This document shows, one piece after another, positions 2,592 to 47,068 of a DNA stretch of 64,000 nt (within the stretch, counting starts at the first letter, position 1; each line of letters starts with the position of its first letter). The DNA lies in contig NZ_OZ252257.1 of NCBI RefSeq assembly GCF_965249915.1, positions 4,850,276 to 4,914,275 of the forward strand. The letters run 5' to 3'. The notes beneath the pieces are model-generated. The model ran no database searches, was not told where the DNA came from, and saw only the letters and a list, made by a program, of their open reading frames with translations. This DNA is from Reyranella sp. (GTDB lineage Bacteria; Pseudomonadota; Alphaproteobacteria; Reyranellales; Reyranellaceae). A program made the translations under genes and the position numbers.

Positions 2592-3602
2592 ATGCCGCGT
2601 TCAGAGACCCCTCTTCGTTCCGATCTGTTTCCCGAAATCTCGCCCTATGCCAGCGGCATGCTGGCGGTCGATGGTCGGCACACGATCTATTGGGAGCAGA
2701 GCGGCAATCCGGAGGGCGTGCCCGTCGTGTTCCTGCACGGCGGACCGGGCGCCGGCTCGGCGCCGGTCCATCGCCGGTTTTTCGATCCGCAGTTCTATCG
2801 CATCGTCGTATTCGACCAGCGTGGCTGTGGCCGCTCGATGCCGCTCGGTGAATTGCAGGACAACACCACGGCCGATCTCGTGGCCGACATGGAGAAGCTC
2901 CGGACGCATCTCGGCATCCCGAGCTGGCTGCTGTTCGGCGGCTCCTGGGGCAGCACACTGGCACTGGCCTACGGTCTCAGCCATCCAGGGCGCGCCACCG
3001 GCTTGATCCTGCGCGGCATCTTCCTAGGCGCACGCCCGGAGATCGACTGGTTCCTCCACGGCATGCGCACCATCTTCCCGGAGGCGTGGCGCGAATTCGC
3101 CGAGCACCTGCCGGCCGAGGAGCGCGGCGACCTGCTGGGCAACTATTACCGTCGCCTGATCGACCGCAATCCCGACCTGCACCGTCCGGCGGCGCGCGCC
3201 TGGAGCCGCTACGAGGCGGCCTGCTCGACGCTCTACCCGATGGTGCGCGCGCCGTTCGAGACCGACCATGGCGGCTTCGCGCTCGCCCTGTCGCGCATCG
3301 AGGCCCACTATTTCGCCAATGGGACCTTCGTGCCGGAAGACTGGCCGTGGGCCGGTCTCGACCGCATCCGCCACCTGCCCGCCACCATCGTCCAGGGTCG
3401 CTACGACATCGTCTGCCCGCCGGTGACGGCCGATGCGCTGGCCCGCGCCTGGCCCGAGGCGCGATACGTGATCGTGCCCGATGCCGGCCACAGCGCGCTG
3501 GAACCCGGCATCCGCGCCGCCCTGGTCAACGCCACCGAAAGCTACCGGCTCTCGACCAGCGACACCGAACTCTTCGCCCCCCGCTTTCCGTGGGACGCAT
3601 AA
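2592..3602 (+). CDS. pip: prolyl aminopeptidase (proline iminopeptidase)
   Basis: 336-aa ORF with typical Pip N-terminus (...YWEQSGNPEGVPVVFLHGGPGAG...) and nucleophile elbow GGSWGSTLALAY. Confidence 0.9.
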   Translation: MPRSETPLRSDLFPEISPYASGMLAVDGRHTIYWEQSGNPEGVPVVFLHGGPGAGSAPVHRRFFDPQFYRIVVFDQRGCGRSMPLGELQDNTTADLVADMEKLRTHLGIPSWLLFGGSWGSTLALAYGLSHPGRATGLILRGIFLGARPEIDWFLHGMRTIFPEAWREFAEHLPAEERGDLLGNYYRRLIDRNPDLHRPAARAWSRYEAACSTLYPMVRAPFETDHGGFALALSRIEAHYFANGTFVPEDWPWAGLDRIRHLPATIVQGRYDIVCPPVTADALARAWPEARYVIVPDAGHSALEPGIRAALVNATESYRLSTSDTELFAPRFPWDA

Positions 3603-8777: not shown

Positions 8778-8835
8778 GACCCATTCGCCTCATCCTTCGA
8801 GACGCCGCGCCTCGCACGGCTTCTCAGGATGAGGT
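8778..8835. repeat. REP1 family, half copy (right arm only)
   Basis: cctcatccttcgagacgccgcgc...ttctcaggatgaggt matches the right arm of the full copies at 43211-43346 and 46934-47068. It lies between the convergent dnaJ and ABC ATPase genes. Confidence 0.7.
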
Positions 8836-28098: not shown

Positions 28099-28110
28099 CC
28101 TCACCCTGAG
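28099..28110. repeat. REP1 copy, left fragment split off by the IS110 insertion
   Basis: cctcaccctgag is identical to the first 12 nt of the intact copies. The rest of the copy resumes at 29235. Confidence 0.7.
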
Positions 28111-28125
28111 CGACCGTCGTGTTGG

Positions 28126-29049
28126 TCAAGCGTTTGCCCATTGTTTTCTGTCCCTGAGGATGGCGTTGAGGATGGTCACGAGCTTGCGCATGCAAGCGAC
28201 GATGGCGACCTTTGCCGGCTTTCCTGCGGCGCGCAGGCGATGATAGGTCAGCGCCAAGGGCAGCTTGCGGCGGATGGAGACGAGGATGCTCATGTAGAGG
28301 GCAGCCCGTACGACGGGTCGTCCTCCCGCGATGGTACGGCGGCCACGCAAGGTGCCGCTGTCGCGATTGAACGGGGCGACGCCGGTCAGGGAAGCAATCT
28401 CGCGTCGGCCGAGACGGCCCAGTTCAGGCAGTTCGGCGATCAGGGTGCGGGCGATCCTGGGCCCGATGCCGGGAACGCTGATCAGAAGGTCCTCCGCTTC
28501 CCGCCAGGTCGGTGTTCCCCGGACGGCGGTGTCGATGTCGTCGTCGATCTGTTCGAGCTGGGCCTTCAAGGTGGCAAGCACGCGATCGACGCTCTTGAGG
28601 GTGCGTCGAACTGTGAGCATGCGCCGGCGATTGCTCTCGGCCCCGATCATCTCGACGAGCTGACGGCGGCGGGCCATCAGTTCGCCCAACAGTCTGGACT
28701 GCTCGTCAGCGAGCGGTCGCGCCGGTGGGTTCACCGCCTCGGCGAAGTGGGCGATGACAGCGGCATCCAGCGCATCGGTCTTGGCCAGCCGTGCGGTGGC
28801 CCGGGCGAAGTCTCGGATCTGCCGTGGATTGACGACCGCCACGGGCAGGCCCGCCGCGCCCAGGCCTGCCGCCACGATCGTCTCGAAGCCACCGGTTGCT
28901 TCGAGCACGATCAGAGCAGGTGCCATTTTACTCAGCCGCCCAATCAGGTCCTCGATGCCTTCTCCGTTGCGGGCAACGGTGAAGGCCTCGCCGGCGGGGC
29001 GCACATGAACATCCAGGCGCTCTTTCGCCACATCGATACCTACGAACAT
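28126..29049 (-). CDS. IS110 family transposase (DEDD RuvC-like domain plus Tnp Ser domain recombinase)
   Basis: ATG 29049. MFVGIDVAKERLDVHV..., LEATGG, AKTDALDA and the C-terminal ISVPGIGP and FNRDSG motifs. The upstream ORF extension runs into REP DNA and was rejected. Confidence 0.9.
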   Translation of the reverse strand: MFVGIDVAKERLDVHVRPAGEAFTVARNGEGIEDLIGRLSKMAPALIVLEATGGFETIVAAGLGAAGLPVAVVNPRQIRDFARATARLAKTDALDAAVIAHFAEAVNPPARPLADEQSRLLGELMARRRQLVEMIGAESNRRRMLTVRRTLKSVDRVLATLKAQLEQIDDDIDTAVRGTPTWREAEDLLISVPGIGPRIARTLIAELPELGRLGRREIASLTGVAPFNRDSGTLRGRRTIAGGRPVVRAALYMSILVSIRRKLPLALTYHRLRAAGKPAKVAIVACMRKLVTILNAILRDRKQWANA

Positions 29050-29234
29050 GGATCTTGGCTCCCATCCTTGCGCATGCGGGCTCGCGGTTCGGCCCAGGCG
29101 ACCGTTCGGGATCACAAAATCAACGGTGGAGGCGCCGAGCTCAGGGACGGGCTTGGAGGCCCCAGGAGCCTGCGGGCTCTCCACCGAGACCGCACCTGCA
29201 ACTCTACGCCGGCGCGGCCGTGTCTTGATACAAG
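29050..29234 (-). ncRNA. candidate IS110 bridge RNA locus (5' non-coding end of the element)
   Basis: 185-nt non-coding left end, in the position and size range where IS110-group elements encode bridge RNA. It contains a 7-nt match to the target flank. Structure not verified. Confidence 0.35.
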
Positions 29235-29337
29235 GAGCGGCCCGAAGGGTCGCGTCTCGAAGGGTGGGCACGCGCACCCCGTCTGTTGCCCATCCTTCGA
29301 GACGCCGTGCTTTGCGCGGCTCCTCAGCATGAGGTGG
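29235..29337. repeat. REP1 copy, remainder (right of the IS110 insertion)
   Basis: gagcgg...gcgtctcgaagggtgggcacgcgcacc...gcccatccttcgagacg...ctcctcagcatgaggtgg. Confidence 0.75.
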
Positions 29338-39334: not shown

Positions 39335-39437
39335 CCTCATACTGAGGAGCGCGCCGCAGGCGCGCGTCTCGAAGCATGGGACGAGCACCGCGCGTGTTGC
39401 CGATCCTTCGAGACGCGGCCTGCGGCCGCTCCTCAGA
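39335..39437. repeat. REP1 copy (left arm plus most of the right arm), truncated by IS insertion
   Basis: cctcatactgaggagcgcgccgcaggcgcgcgtctcgaagcatggg...ccgatccttcgagacgcgg...gctcctcag. The remainder resumes at 41039. Confidence 0.75.
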
Positions 39438-39504
39438 TTCTATGTGGCGACGAGAGGTCGAGAGGTAGGTTTGGAGTTGCGAGAACCGAACCTACGGAGA
39501 AGTT

Positions 39505-40677
39505 ATGACGTCTTCACATCCCATAGACACCCCCGCCGCCGGCGAGAAGGATGCCACGTTGTACGTGGCGTTTGAACTGAGCAAGTCGAAGTGGCTGATC
39601 GGTATGGTGATGTCCGGCGAGAGCAAGATGAGCCGCCACCAAGTGGCTGGCGGCGATACGGCGGCGGTGTGGCAGCTGATCTCGAAGAAGCGCGCCCATG
39701 CGGAGAAGCATGGCCGGCCGGTGCGTGTGGTGAGCTGCTACGAGGCCGGCTATGACGGCTTCTGGTTCGATCGTTGGCTGGCCGGGCAGGGCGTCGCCAA
39801 TCGGGTGCTCGATCCGTCGAGCATCGAGATGCCGCGGCGCGCGCGGCAGGCCAAGACGGACCGTCTGGACCTCGAGCGTCTGATGCGGGTGCTGATCCGC
39901 CACGAGGGTGGCGAGCCGAAGGTCTGCAGCGTGGTTCATCCGCCGACCCCCGAGCAGGAAGACGCCCGTCGGGTGTCGCGCGAGCGGGACCGGCTGATCG
40001 GCGAGCGCACCGCCCATGTCAACCGCATCAAGGGTCTGTTGCATGGCCAGGGGATCCGCGACGTGCATCCGCGCCGCAAAGGCTTCCTCGAGCAGCTTGC
40101 CCAGCTTCGGACCGGCGACGGCCGCGCCGTGCCGGCCAACCTGGCGGCCGAGATCCAGCGCGAGCACGCCCGTCTGGTGCAGGTCGGCGAGCAGATTGCC
40201 GAAGTCGAGAGCCAGATGACGGCGGAGCGTGCCGCCGCGGCGCCGGACAGTCGGGCCAGCCAGGTCAACCAGCTGATCAGCCTGAAGAGCGTCGGGCCGG
40301 TCGGCGGCGAGACGCTGGTCAACGAGGTATTCTGGCGCGACTTCCAGAACCGGCGCCAGGTCGGAGGCTATTTTGGCCTGGCCGGGACGCCGTTCGACAG
40401 CGGCCAGAGCTCGCGCGAGCAGGGCATCAGCAAGGCCGGCAACGCCCGCGCCCGGACCTTGGCCATCGAGCTTTCATGGCTATGGCTGCGCTACCAGCCC
40501 GCCAGCACCTTGAGCCTGTGGTTCACGAGCCGCGTCGGCGATCAAAAAGGCCGTGTCAGACGCATCGCCATTGTGGCCCTGGCGCGCAAGCTGATGGTGG
40601 CGCTGTGGCGCTTCCTCACCCAGGGCCTGGTGCCCGAGGGCGCCAGGCTGCGAGCTGCCGCACCGGCCGGCCGCTGA
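39505..40677 (+). CDS. IS110 family transposase (IS1111-like)
   Basis: 390-aa ORF with N-terminal acidic motifs (VAFELSK, CYEAGYDGF, AKTDRLDLERL) and a C-terminal Tnp domain (LKSVGPVGG, PFDSGQSSREQGISKAGN). Confidence 0.9.
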   Translation: MTSSHPIDTPAAGEKDATLYVAFELSKSKWLIGMVMSGESKMSRHQVAGGDTAAVWQLISKKRAHAEKHGRPVRVVSCYEAGYDGFWFDRWLAGQGVANRVLDPSSIEMPRRARQAKTDRLDLERLMRVLIRHEGGEPKVCSVVHPPTPEQEDARRVSRERDRLIGERTAHVNRIKGLLHGQGIRDVHPRRKGFLEQLAQLRTGDGRAVPANLAAEIQREHARLVQVGEQIAEVESQMTAERAAAAPDSRASQVNQLISLKSVGPVGGETLVNEVFWRDFQNRRQVGGYFGLAGTPFDSGQSSREQGISKAGNARARTLAIELSWLWLRYQPASTLSLWFTSRVGDQKGRVRRIAIVALARKLMVALWRFLTQGLVPEGARLRAAAPAGR

Positions 40678-41038
40678 ACGGCGGCGGCCCGGTGTGTTGC
40701 GCAGGAAGCTGATGATGACCGTCCTCATCCATGGACCATGCGGTACCGCTGTCTCAGAAGGGTCTCATCGTTTCCTGGGCAAGACCTCGACCGTGCATGA
40801 GGGATTTGGGTGCGGGGCGCAGCGACGCCCGACCGGATATAAGGTGATGCCGTCGACACAACGTGCATTGGCCAGACGCCCAGACTTCCAACGCAACGCG
40901 CCGAAGGCCGCCCCTCCACGCACCCCTTCCAGCGCCGCGCTCGCGCGCGGCACTCTCAAGCTTCCATCCCCGAGACGGTCCGATGATTGAGGGACAAAAA
41001 ATCCAACCCGCCCCTTGACCGTTCAGCGCTCATATAAG
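40678..41038 (+). ncRNA. candidate bridge/seek RNA locus (3' non-coding end of the element)
   Basis: 361 nt of non-coding DNA downstream of the recombinase, as in IS1111-group elements. It contains cctcatcc (antisense of the target flank) and atataaggtgatg (a mimic of the right-end junction). Structure not verified. Confidence 0.35.
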
Positions 41039-41072
41039 GATGAGGTGGTGCGTGTCGACCTGAAGCGGAAAG
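41039..41072. repeat. REP1 copy, terminal fragment after the IS
   Basis: gatgaggtggtgcgtgtcgacctgaagcggaaag parallels gatgaggtggtgtgggtgaacctgaagcgaaaag at 47035-47068. Confidence 0.7.
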
Positions 41073-41236
41073 CTCTGGCAGCCTGTCCCAAATGGGTTTT
41101 TCAGAAGGACCGACGAGCAACACCGCTCCGTCGAGGTCGACCCTGACAAGACTCGGGGGGTGCGACATCCGTTTCGATTGTTTCGTTTATTAGGCCGGGC
41201 TGCGCTCGCCCACTCGCTCACTTGACGTCTCCGAAT

Positions 41237-43155: not shown

Positions 43156-43210
43156 TCAGACGAGCATAGCGGCGGCGACAAGATCATCGCCCCGCTGCAC
43201 TCGATTACGA

Positions 43211-43346
43211 CCTCACCCTGAGGAGCGCTCCAGAGGAGCGCGTCTCGAAGGGTGGGCACGAGCACCTCGCCTGTTGCCCATCCTTCGAGACGGCGCGGAG
43301 TTTACCCCGAGGTATTCGAGGGGCGCCTTCTCAGGATGAGGGTGAG
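43211..43346. repeat. REP1 family element, complete copy, intercistronic
   Basis: cctcaccctgaggagcgc...gcgtctcgaagggtgggcacgagcacc...gcccatccttcgagacgg...ttctcaggatgagggtgag. It lies between the SBP and permease genes of one operon. Confidence 0.8.
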
Positions 43347-46933: not shown

Positions 46934-47068
46934 CCTCACCCTGAGGAGCGCGCCGCAGGAGCGCGTCTCGAAGGGTGGGCACGAGCACCACGTCTGTTGC
47001 CCATCCTTCGAGACGGCCCTTCGGGCCTCCTCAGGATGAGGTGGTGTGGGTGAACCTGAAGCGAAAAG
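46934..47068. repeat. REP1 family element, complete copy
   Basis: Best-preserved nested palindrome. Left arm cctcaccctgaggagcgcgccgcaggagcgcgtctcgaagggtgggc; right arm gcccatccttcgagacggcccttcgggcctcctcaggatgaggtgg. It abuts the def stop codon. Confidence 0.8.

What the first reader, a model, noticed from the sequence alone, without database searches (positions are those of the whole stretch)
39335..41072. IS1111-like element inserted in a REP1 right arm, with a 361-nt 3' non-coding tail carrying target-like and end-like motifs (candidate seek/bridge RNA)
Seen in the sequence:
- A 390-aa IS110-family recombinase is encoded at 39505-40677.
- The flanks ...gctcctcag (to 39437) and gatgaggtgg... 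(from 41039) rejoin to give the intact REP1 right arm ctcctcaggatgaggtgg.
- AG is present at both junctions.
- The termini are imperfect inverted repeats (attctatgtggcg / reverse complement of cgctcatataag).
- The non-coding DNA is distributed the opposite way to the other IS: 67 nt lie 5' of the ORF and 361 nt lie 3' of it.

Established knowledge: the IS1111 subgroup carries its guide RNA downstream of the recombinase.

Matches inside this tail:
- cctcatcc (40723-40730) is the reverse complement of the right target flank ggatgagg (41038-41045).
- atataaggtgatg (40837-40849) mimics the right-end/target junction atataag|gatgag (41032-41044).

Neither 8-mer match would be expected often by chance in 361 nt. 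I did not compute a probability rigorously.
Basis: partly seen in the sequence, partly recalled or inferred. Interest (0 to 1): 0.75.

Follow-up and report, generated by a model that had tools for sequence, protein, structure and literature searches.

The report
RNA-guided insertion sequence in REP

Summary
The element is real: window 39437-41038 (1602 bp including one AG), cleanly splitting a REP right arm at CTC-AG|GATGAGG. It encodes a 390-aa IS110-family recombinase with 68 nt of non-coding DNA 5' and 361 nt 3'.

Eighty related loci (51-99% protein identity, about 20 different insertion sites) show that 40696-40897 is a conserved structured RNA module with two internal loops:

All four segments change in step with target or ends across the family (165/176 guide positions match; 0/20,000 permutations). 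The stems around them carry compensatory changes (88.7% paired against 39-47% in slid controls).

The layout is the IS621 bridge RNA read on the other strand. It includes a handshake-like position and has the guide order reported for IS1111 seekRNAs.

In the single sequence the motif matches are not beyond chance, and "GTGATG" is family-constant. No expression data exist.

Verdict: interpretation supported; a new member of a known kind.

The parts
39335..39436 (+). Left part of the interrupted REP. It ends with the left target flank CTC (39432-39434) and the left copy of the core AG (39435-39436).
   Evidence: Aligns with the intact REP at 46934-47068; REP family D2/D3.
39437..41038 (+). The insertion sequence: 1602 bp counting the right-hand AG (41037-41038).
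   Evidence: Flanks rejoin to an intact REP arm. Identical or near-identical copies with the same ends occur at other sites.
39437..39449 (+). Left end ATTCTATGTGGCG. ATTCT is the right-donor segment read by loop 2. TATGTGGCG (39441-39449) is the left sub-terminal inverted repeat.
   Evidence: Left end conserved as AG|ATYCTATGGGGCG in 80 loci. ATYCY covaries with the RNA segment GGRAU.
39465..39499 (+). 5' non-coding hairpin GTAGGTT/AACCTAC followed by the Shine-Dalgarno sequence GGAG, just before the ATG.
   Evidence: Read from the sequence. The same hairpin occurs with changed sequence in relatives. Function inferred only.
39505..40677 (+). Recombinase gene, 390 aa: RuvC-like domain plus a Tnp domain with the SG motif (S299-G300). 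Glu replaces the first catalytic Asp.
40696..40897 (+). Bridge/seek RNA module, about 202 nt, closed by helix P1 (GUUGCG 40696-40701 with CGCAAC 40892-40897).
   Evidence: Covariance model R1 hits 40686-40906 at 154 bits and nothing else in the window. There is one hit just 3' of the gene in 79 of 80 related loci. Pair counts.
40702..40777 (+). Target-binding stem-loop. The outer stem pairs 40702-40720 with 40761-40777 and encloses an internal loop and a small inner hairpin.
   Evidence: RNAalifold. Helix 2 is 89.5-92.5% paired and 9-12 of 16 pairs carry compensatory changes. It is also found in the single-sequence fold.
40723..40730 (+). Right-target guide CCUCAUCC, the reverse complement of G(core)+GATGAGG.
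   Evidence: 165 of 176 positions match over 22 distinct guides; 0 of 20,000 permutations reach this.
40753..40758 (+). Left-target guide CUCAG, a copy of the left flank CTC + AG, which pairs with the bottom strand. It is followed by A (40758), which equals the first base of the left end (a handshake-like position).
   Evidence: Identity to the flank is 31/31, 30/31 and 26/31 at positions -1, -2 and -3, and random beyond that. The A is invariant.
40796..40806 (+). Right-donor guide CAU..GGGAUU. GGGAUU pairs with G(core)+ATTCT of the left end, using G-T/U-G wobbles in this copy. CAU may pair with the ATG of CTATG discontiguously.
   Evidence: GGAAU/AGAAU goes with ATTCT, AGGAU/GGGAU with ATCCT, GGGAU with ATCCC, and GGAAU with ATTCC. 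The CAU part is inferred by analogy with the IS621 RDG.
40809..40834 (+). Inner stem-loop of the donor-binding loop: GGU/ACC plus CGGG..CCCG.
   Evidence: Helix 5 is 87.5-93.2% paired.
40837..40844 (+). It is followed by G (40844), which tracks the first base of the right target flank (handshake-like).
   Evidence: Identical to the cognate right end in every one of six end classes: ATATAAG, ATGTAAG, ATACAAG, ATACGAG, AGATAAG, ATATGAG. The next nt is G with RT1=G in 48/48 loci, and U with RT1=C (14 loci) or T (9 loci).
40847..40868 (+). 3' hairpin P5: AUGC-CGU ... ACG-U-GCAU.
   Evidence: Helix 6/7 is 88-90% paired and 4-5 of 6 pairs carry compensatory changes.
40884..40891 (+). Linker ACUUCCAA. 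It is complementary to GGAAG (40704-40708), the 5' strand of the base of the target stem, giving a possible alternative pairing.
   Evidence: The complementarity covaries across clades: observed 80.5 against a permutation mean of 64.3, 0/5000. Meaning unexplained.
41015..41020 (+). TTGACC, a -35-like box that is invariant (TTGAC) in the family. It lies 18 nt from the right end and is a candidate half of a promoter formed at the circle junction.
   Evidence: Conserved in 61 unique right ends. Its role is inferred from published junction promoters of this family. No matching -10 box could be fixed.
41027..41038 (+). Right end CGCTCATATAAG: the sub-terminal repeat CGCTCATA (41027-41034), then TA, then the core AG.
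41039..41072 (+). Remainder of the REP right arm, starting with the right target flank GATGAGG (41039-41045).

Best explanation
Window 39437-41038 is an intact IS110-family insertion sequence with IS1111-type organisation. Its 3' non-coding region encodes a roughly 200-nt bridge (seek) RNA at 40696-40897.

**What is shown by sequence comparison**
- The RNA has two internal loops.
- Loop 1 (target-binding) presents CCUCAUCC, complementary to the top strand of G+GATGAGG. It also presents CUCAG, identical to CTC+AG and therefore able to pair with the bottom strand.
- Loop 2 (donor-binding) presents GGGAUU, complementary to G+ATTCT of the left end. It also presents AUAUAAG, identical to the right end + AG.

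**What is inferred by analogy with IS621, ISEc11 and relatives**
- The recombinase excises the element as a circle joining ...CATATA-AG-ATTCTAT...
- Recombinase tetramers loaded with the RNA pair the circle junction with the 12-nt site CTC-AG-GATGAGG and exchange strands at the AG core.
- The result is insertion without target duplication.

**Why it lands in REPs.** That 12-mer is part of the right arm of a REP, so REPs are the natural landing pads. Three unoccupied exact sites lie in this window.

**Relation to IS621.** Read on the opposite strand the core is CT, and the loop layout (long guide 5', short guide 3', then a handshake nucleotide) is that of IS621.
For: **Element boundaries and clean insertion**
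-. Further insertion sites of the identical or near-identical (97-99% protein identity) element all have CTCAG|GATGAGG.
- Metagenome contigs carrying the identical recombinase break exactly at (C)CTCCTCAG and GATGAGGT.

**Protein family**
-. The family profile scores 76.6 against IS4321. It scores 26.7 against the resident IS110-type element and gives E about 0.005 against IS621/ISCro4.

**Guide-DNA covariation over about 20 target classes**
- Right-target guide: 165/176 positions match; 0/20,000 permutations reach this; non-cognate mean 4.4 of 8.
- Left-target guide: matches the flank at -1 to -3 only.
- Left-donor guide: identical to the cognate right end in all six end classes.
- Right-donor guide: follows the T/C differences of the left end.
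- Handshake-like nucleotide: follows the first base of the right target flank in 71/71 loci, with switches inside three clades.

**Structure**
- RNAalifold recovers the stems around the loops.
- MAFFT alignment: 83.5% of cells paired against 33-51% in slid controls; 119 double-change cells against 36-64.
- Model-based alignment of 61 distinct sequences: 88.7% paired against 39-47%; 30 of 42 pairs with compensatory changes.

**Position and strand**
- One model hit just 3' of the gene on the sense strand in 79/80 loci, and none elsewhere in the window.
- G-U exceeds A-C in the helices, 68 to 31. The U-G wobbles in guide-DNA pairing fit an RNA of the + strand.

**Published mechanism for the family:**

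**Target enrichment:** 9 sites with at most 1 mismatch in the window against 0.43 expected.
Against: - There are no transcript data of any kind.
- No sigma-70-like promoter was found in the linear element.
- Single-sequence folding is no better than shuffles (z = -1.0, +0.4 and -1.0).
- In the single sequence the motif matches are not significant.
- In this copy the right-donor guide needs three wobble pairs, and the right-target guide does not pair with the A of the core.
- The first catalytic residue is Glu instead of Asp in the whole clade. This is untested biochemically.
- Whether this particular copy is active is unknown.
Confidence: 0.88

Rival explanations
1. The 3' tail is an ordinary untranslated region or terminator region, and the two motif matches are chance.
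For: In the single sequence, matches of this quality arise in 17-20% of shuffled tails. Folding energies are unremarkable. There is no Rfam match.
Against: The same positions change in step with target and ends in about 20 target classes. The stems carry compensatory changes. The block is more conserved than neighbouring non-coding DNA across 51-99% protein identity.
Confidence: 0.02
2. The guide-like segments act as DNA rather than RNA. Either they are single-stranded DNA of the element end pairing with the target, as in IS200/IS605-type elements, or they are protein-binding sites that co-evolve with the target.
For: Covariation alone cannot tell RNA from DNA, and no transcript has been shown. 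The segments lie within 200-340 nt of the right end.
Against: - The module is 140 nt or more from the end and separated from it by variable DNA, with a large insertion or deletion between relatives.
- Helices tolerate G-U twice as often as A-C on the sense strand.
- Guide-DNA wobbles are of the U-G/G-T type on the sense strand.
- The recombinase is a DEDD/Ser enzyme whose relatives were shown to bind and need such RNAs.
- NCBIfam names the family RNA-guided.
Confidence: 0.04
3. The architecture is that of a bridge-RNA element, but this copy is an immobile relic, for example through poor donor-guide pairing or lack of expression.
For: - There is one copy in 64 kb while three perfect empty targets nearby remain unused.
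- The right-donor guide GGGAUU pairs with ATTCT through wobbles.
- The long hairpin present in relatives is mostly deleted here.
- No promoter was found.
Against: - The ORF is intact, with all family-invariant residues.
- Guides match the actual flanks 8/8, 5/5 and 7/7.
- Identical proteins and 97-99% identical elements sit at several different sites in other assemblies, and contigs collapse at the element ends as for a multi-copy repeat.
- The closest relatives share the GGGAUU guide.
Confidence: 0.15

Closest known systems
IS621 bridge RNA system (IS110 group; Durrant et al. 2024 PMC11208160; Hiraizumi et al. 2024 PMC11208158; PMC13626964)
   Same: - DEDD + Ser recombinase.
- A roughly 180-200-nt RNA with a target-binding loop followed by a donor-binding loop.
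- Each loop has one guide for the top strand and one for the bottom strand, overlapping a 2-nt core.
- The donor guide pairs discontiguously.
- A handshake position sits next to the short guides, with the same dinucleotides (AU after the target guide in most relatives, GU after the donor guide).
- It targets a REP.
- The core is CT when this element is read on the opposite strand.
   Different: - The RNA gene lies 3' of the recombinase gene, not 5'.
- Relative to the gene's sense strand, guide order within each loop is reversed and the core reads AG.
- The long guide is 7+1 nt and the short one 3+2 nt.
- The protein is only remotely similar (profile E about 0.005, C-terminal part only), is 390 aa against 326, and has Glu at the first catalytic position.
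- Extra helices (P1, P3, P5) enclose the donor loop.
IS1111-family seekRNA elements ISEc11, ISPa11, ISKpn4, ISPst6 (Siddiquee et al. 2024, PMC11187229)
   Same: - The long non-coding region is downstream of tnp.
- Sub-terminal inverted repeats are present.
- The top-strand match lies 5' of the bottom-strand match.
- Insertion is site-specific without duplication.
- A junction -35 box lies in the right end.
- Natural reprogramming occurs between close relatives: window against L004/L005, as with ISEc11 against ISXne4.
   Different: - The protein is 390 aa against the published 330-350 aa.
- The repeats are 8-9 bp against the usual 11-13 bp.
- Terminal extensions are 4-6 and 2-4 bp against 7 and 3 bp.
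- The motif is GLxxxPxxSG rather than GLxPxxxxS/TG.
- The conserved RNA module is about 200 nt and includes a donor loop. That paper's predominant seekRNAs were 82-96 nt, and longer forms were also seen.
REP-targeting IS110-family elements: ISPpu9/ISPpu10 of P. putida and ISPa11 (PMC12288879; Tobes & Pareja 2006, as cited)
   Same: They insert at one fixed position of a repetitive extragenic palindrome, and the host genome offers many copies of the site.
   Different: The host lineage (alphaproteobacterial-type REP), the target sequence and the RNA are all different. ISPpu9 carries a separable sRNA module (ssr9) that is not needed for transposition. Nothing comparable is seen here.
IS4321/IS5075 (IS1111 group, plasmid R751)
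   Same: This is the best available protein relative tested: hhalign probability 96.8% over 271 columns.
   Different: Identity is only 22-23% and the N-terminal roughly 50-80 residues do not align. IS4321 targets the inverted repeats of Tn21-type transposons.

Membership tests
IS110 family (sensu lato) | Recombinase with an N-terminal RuvC-like DEDD domain (PF01548) and a C-terminal PF02371 domain carrying the conserved S/T-G. | tested here: met
   Pfam PF01548 at 30.6 bits (cut-off 29) and PF02371 at 40.8 bits. NF033542 at 185 bits (cut-off 140). S299-G300 is invariant. The first acidic residue is Glu, not Asp.
IS110 family (sensu lato) | Site-specific insertion with no target duplication other than a shared core dinucleotide. 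| tested here: met
   Flanks rejoin to an intact REP arm and AG lies at both junctions. The same holds in about 70 related loci.
IS1111 group | The long non-coding region lies downstream of tnp. | tested here: met
   68 nt 5' against 361 nt 3'. The same holds throughout the family.
IS1111 group | Sub-terminal inverted repeats, usually 11-13 bp, with terminal extensions of 7 (or 6) and 3 bp. | tested here: inconclusive
   Repeats are present but shorter: the family has TATGGGGCG/..CCCCATA (8-9 bp) and the window has TATGTGGCG/CGCTCATA (imperfect). Extensions are 4-6 and 2-4 bp, depending on where AG is assigned.
IS1111 group | Transposase of 330-350 aa related over its full length to that of IS1111. 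| tested here: inconclusive
   The protein is 390 aa. The profile aligns with IS4321 over 271 columns (80-371 against 52-325) at 23% identity and probability 96.8%. This is much better than against an IS110-type element (probability 5.4%) or IS621. The N-terminus is not aligned, and IS1111 itself was not available.
IS1111 group | In the RNA, the top-strand match lies 5' of the bottom-strand match. | tested here: met
   The right-target guide (complement of the top strand) at 40723-40730 precedes the left-target guide (copy of the top strand) at 40753-40757. This holds in all relatives.
Bridge/seek RNA-guided recombination | A structured non-coding RNA with two internal loops, one matching the target and one matching the element ends. 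| tested here: met
Bridge/seek RNA-guided recombination | The RNA is transcribed, binds the recombinase and is required for transposition, and changing the loops redirects insertion. | not testable with these tools
   There are no expression or biochemical data. Natural 'reprogramming' between relatives (window against L004, L005, L008, L011) is the only proxy.
Rfam families | A match to a curated covariance model. | tested here: not met
   No hit at gathering score in the whole window. Only chance-level hits (E of 1.8 or more) in 40600-41100.

The most novel reading that the evidence does not exclude
The clade to which this element belongs (80 loci, mostly Alphaproteobacteria) may be a distinct, undescribed lineage of bridge recombinases.

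Its distinguishing features would be:
- a Glu-Glu-Asp-Asp catalytic set;
- a conserved N-terminal extension;
- a 3'-encoded RNA that keeps the IS621 loop logic down to the handshake nucleotide.

The RNA would also contain a built-in conformational switch. The 5' strand of the base of the target-loop stem covaries with two mutually exclusive partners: its partner in the stem, and the linker before the closing helix. Such a switch could gate exposure of the target loop, for example between excision and insertion, or before and after protein binding.
Probability: 0.15. Interest if true: 0.55.

Novelty: new member of a known kind. Interest (0 to 1): 0.3.

Why it matters
The finding adds a well-resolved natural example to the bridge/seek RNA systems. 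One family supplies about 20 naturally reprogrammed target specificities, six donor-end variants and a clear 3+2+7-nt target rule.

It shows that an IS1111-organised element follows the IS621 loop logic on the opposite strand, including a handshake-like position.

That is useful for annotating such elements in alphaproteobacterial genomes, where the RNA has no Rfam model and goes unannotated. It explains why these REPs attract insertions, and it offers a possible source of orthogonal programmable recombinases.

It does not change the understanding of the mechanism.

Tried and rejected
- **Single-sequence folding.** Folding the tail, a 171-nt core and the 202-nt module gave z-scores of -1.0, +0.4 and -1.0. 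This is uninformative in GC-rich DNA.
- **Rfam.** No family was found at gathering or at permissive thresholds.
- **PDB sequence search with the single protein.** Nothing was found. Only the family profile reached ISCro4/IS621, and weakly.
- **Plasmid collection search with the element.** Only distant coding-region matches of 65-70% identity were found, with no named IS.
- **Promoter scan of the linear element.** None was found. A -10 box for a junction promoter could not be fixed, because the distance from TTGAC to the end varies between 13 and 18 nt.
- **Basal stem for the donor loop (UGCAU with AUGCG).** It is almost invariant, has A-G mismatches where it varies, and competes with hairpin P5, which does covary. 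I did not adopt it.
- **Extension of helix P3 (CUGG/CCAG).** There are no compensatory changes, and mismatches appear when the 5' side changes. Rejected.
Rejected except for the first G.
- **Early regex extraction of guides.** It mis-registered several loci. The statistics quoted come from the corrected extraction.
Full report
**1. What is in the sequence**

The window holds a 1602-bp insert at 39437-41038.
- Its left neighbour ends ...GCCGCTCCTCAG at 39436.
- Its right neighbour starts GATGAGGTGG at 41039.
- Joining the neighbours restores the right arm of a roughly 135-bp palindromic repeat. Intact copies of that repeat lie at 46934-47068 and 43209-43341.
- AG closes both junctions, so one AG belongs to the element and one to the target.
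- The ORF 39505-40677 (390 aa) matches Pfam DEDD_Tnp_IS110 and Transposase_20. It also matches NCBIfam NF033542, 'IS110 family RNA-guided transposase', at 185 bits against a cut-off of 140.
- 68 nt precede the ORF and 361 nt follow it.

**2. Chance**

I tested any 7- or 8-mer of the empty target or of the circle junction, either strand, against 20,000 shuffles of the tail. Equal or better matches occur in 17-20% of shuffles. Single-sequence folding is also unremarkable. The case therefore rests on comparison.

**3. Relatives**

- A protein search found thousands of relatives.
- A scan of one genome per species returned 80 loci with 51-99% protein identity, mostly Alphaproteobacteria such as Bradyrhizobium, Reyranella, Mesorhizobium and Xanthobacteraceae.
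- All have the left end AG|ATYCTATGGGGCG....
- Nearly all have a right end ...CTTGAC-N13-18-CCCCATAYA-AG|.
- They sit in about 20 different sites. Examples are CTC-AG-GATGAGG, CTC-AG-GACGACG, CAC-AG-GTTCAGC, CGT-AG-CCCGGAT, TCC-AG-TGGGTGC, AAA-AG-GGGGC.., TAG-AG-TCGGAAT and ACA-AG-CCCGGCG.

**4. The RNA module**

Aligning the 3' non-coding regions shows a conserved block of about 200 nt right after the stop codon.

*Block 1 (target loop).* Block 1 has the consensus GUGACCG-N-[7 nt]-CC..hairpin..CCGCU-N3-[NNNAG]-A-UGGGUCCCGUC.
- The 7 nt plus the next C are the reverse complement of G + the first seven bases of the right flank. Over 22 distinct guides, 165 of 176 positions match. Non-cognate pairs average 4.4 of 8. 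None of 20,000 permutations exceeds 132.
- NNNAG copies the three bases left of the core plus AG. Identity is 31/31, 30/31 and 26/31, and random further out.

*Block 2 (donor loop).* Block 2 has the consensus UGCAUGA-[GGRAUY]-GGGU-hairpin-ACCGG-[5 nt+AG]-GUGAUG.
- The 5 nt+AG equal the cognate right end in all six end variants.
- GGRAUY follows the T/C differences of the left end ATYCY through Watson-Crick or G-T pairs.

*Window coordinates of the four segments.*
- Right-target guide: 40723-40730.
- Left-target guide: 40753-40757.
- Right-donor guide: 40801-40806.
- Left-donor guide: 40837-40843.

**5. Structure**

- RNAalifold places all four segments in internal loops between stems.
- A hand-drawn model of 42 pairs was scored on a MAFFT alignment of 36 sequences. 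It is 83.5% paired against 33-51% for slid partners, with 119 double-change cells against 36-64, and 0/500 shuffles reach it.
- A covariance model built from that alignment finds one site in the window, 40686-40906 at 154 bits, and nothing else above 11 bits.
- The model finds one site just 3' of the gene on the sense strand in 79 of 80 loci. The 80th locus is truncated.
- On the model-based alignment of 61 distinct sequences, 88.7% of cells pair against 39-47%, and 30 of 42 pairs carry compensatory changes. That alignment leans towards the model, so the MAFFT figures are the conservative ones.
- G-U outnumbers A-C 68 to 31 in the helices, which fits an RNA of the sense strand.

**6. Relation to known systems**

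- In IS621 the left-target guide (copy of the top strand, long) comes first and the right-target guide (complement, short) second. The core is CT, and two 'handshake' nucleotides follow the short guides.
- Here the order is reversed relative to the gene. That is what Siddiquee et al. report for IS1111-type seekRNAs.
- Read on the other strand, the core AG becomes CT and the layout becomes that of IS621.
- The nucleotide after the left-donor guide is G whenever the right flank starts with G (48/48 loci). It is U when the flank starts with C (14 loci) or T (9 loci), and it switches inside three clades. The base after the left-target guide is always A, the first base of the left end.
The remaining TGATG is constant.

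**7. Subgroup**

- *In favour of IS1111:* the family profile aligns with the IS1111-group transposase of IS4321 (R751) over 271 columns at probability 96.8% and score 76.6.
- *Comparators:* it scores 26.7 (probability 5.4%) against the IS110-type element elsewhere in this window. It gives E about 0.005 against IS621/ISCro4.
- *Also in favour:* the organisation, the sub-terminal repeats and the guide order.
- *Against the published definition:* the protein length (390 aa) and the repeat length (8-9 bp) do not fit.
- I therefore call it IS1111-like without claiming strict membership.

**8. Targets and copies**

- The exact 12-mer CTCAGGATGAGG occurs unoccupied three times in the window, at 8823, 43330 and 47030, all in REP right arms.
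- Nine sites have at most 1 mismatch, against 0.43 expected.
- The identical protein is encoded on seven other public contigs. Several of these are 1618-1621 nt long and end exactly at (C)CTCCTCAG and GATGAGGT, as expected when a multi-copy element with that shared flank collapses in assembly.

**9. What is not shown**

- Transcription, processing, protein binding and activity are all untested.
- No promoter was found in the linear element.
- The invariant TTGAC near the right end may be the -35 half of a junction promoter, as published for relatives. I could not fix a -10 box.

**10. Verdict**

The element is a new member of a known kind. Interest is modest.

Noticed in passing
window 28111-29231 (minus strand); flanks 28099-28110 and 29232-29335: A second, unrelated IS110-family element. 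Its ORF is 28126-29049 (307 aa from MFVGIDVAK), with the long non-coding region 5' of the ORF and core CT on its own sense strand. It is inserted in the left arm of another REP copy, only 3 nt from the position equivalent to the one used by the 39437-41038 element. So two RNA-guided elements with different cores exploit adjacent dinucleotides of the same repeat.
   Followed up: partly
window 39574-39576 (Glu24 of the recombinase); all loci L001-L080: The whole clade has Glu (xxELSK) where IS4321 and the second element have the first catalytic Asp (GIDxxK). The catalytic set would therefore be E-E-D-D rather than D-E-D-D.
   Followed up: partly
window 39505-39565; N-termini of L001-L080: A conserved N-terminal extension of about 20 residues (..D.TDTPAA..) precedes the RuvC-like domain. 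It is absent from IS4321 and from the second element.
   Followed up: no
window 40884-40891 against 40704-40708; the same regions in A5: The linker before the closing helix is complementary to the 5' strand of the base of the target-loop stem, and this complementarity covaries across clades (0/5000 permutations). That strand also covaries with its partner inside the stem, and the two pairings exclude each other. This may be a conformational switch. It remains unexplained.
   Followed up: partly
window ~40931-40951; L004-L054, between the RNA module and the right end: Most relatives carry a long inverted repeat after the RNA module: GCGCCG.GCUCGCCGCCGUCAAGGC ... GCCUUGACGGCGGC.GCGCGCGGCGC, 100-150 nt. 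Only its base remains in the window copy. Function unknown.
   Followed up: no
window 39465-39499: A hairpin GTAGGTT/AACCTAC sits immediately upstream of the Shine-Dalgarno sequence GGAG and the ATG. It is kept, with changed sequence, in relatives. It may be a translational control element.
   Followed up: no
window 41015-41020 and all related right ends: TTGAC is invariant 13-18 nt from the right end in 61 unique sequences. It is a candidate -35 box of a promoter completed by circularisation. No convincing -10 box was found.
   Followed up: partly
window 8823-8834, 43330-43341, 47030-47041: There are three unoccupied exact copies of the 12-nt target, each in a REP right arm. Six more sites have one mismatch, including REP left arms on the minus strand.
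   Followed up: yes
L056:2187-2380 (minus strand): A second, weaker match to the RNA model (47 bits) lies outside the element and in the opposite orientation. It may be a remnant or an RNA-only module.
   Followed up: no
L003:1390-1432 and 3035-3090: This 98%-identical copy is flanked on both sides by a roughly 40-bp direct repeat (AGTGCTTGAATCGAYTCAGTTCATTTCCGGYCAG) rather than by a REP. Even so, the 12-nt site is present.
   Followed up: no
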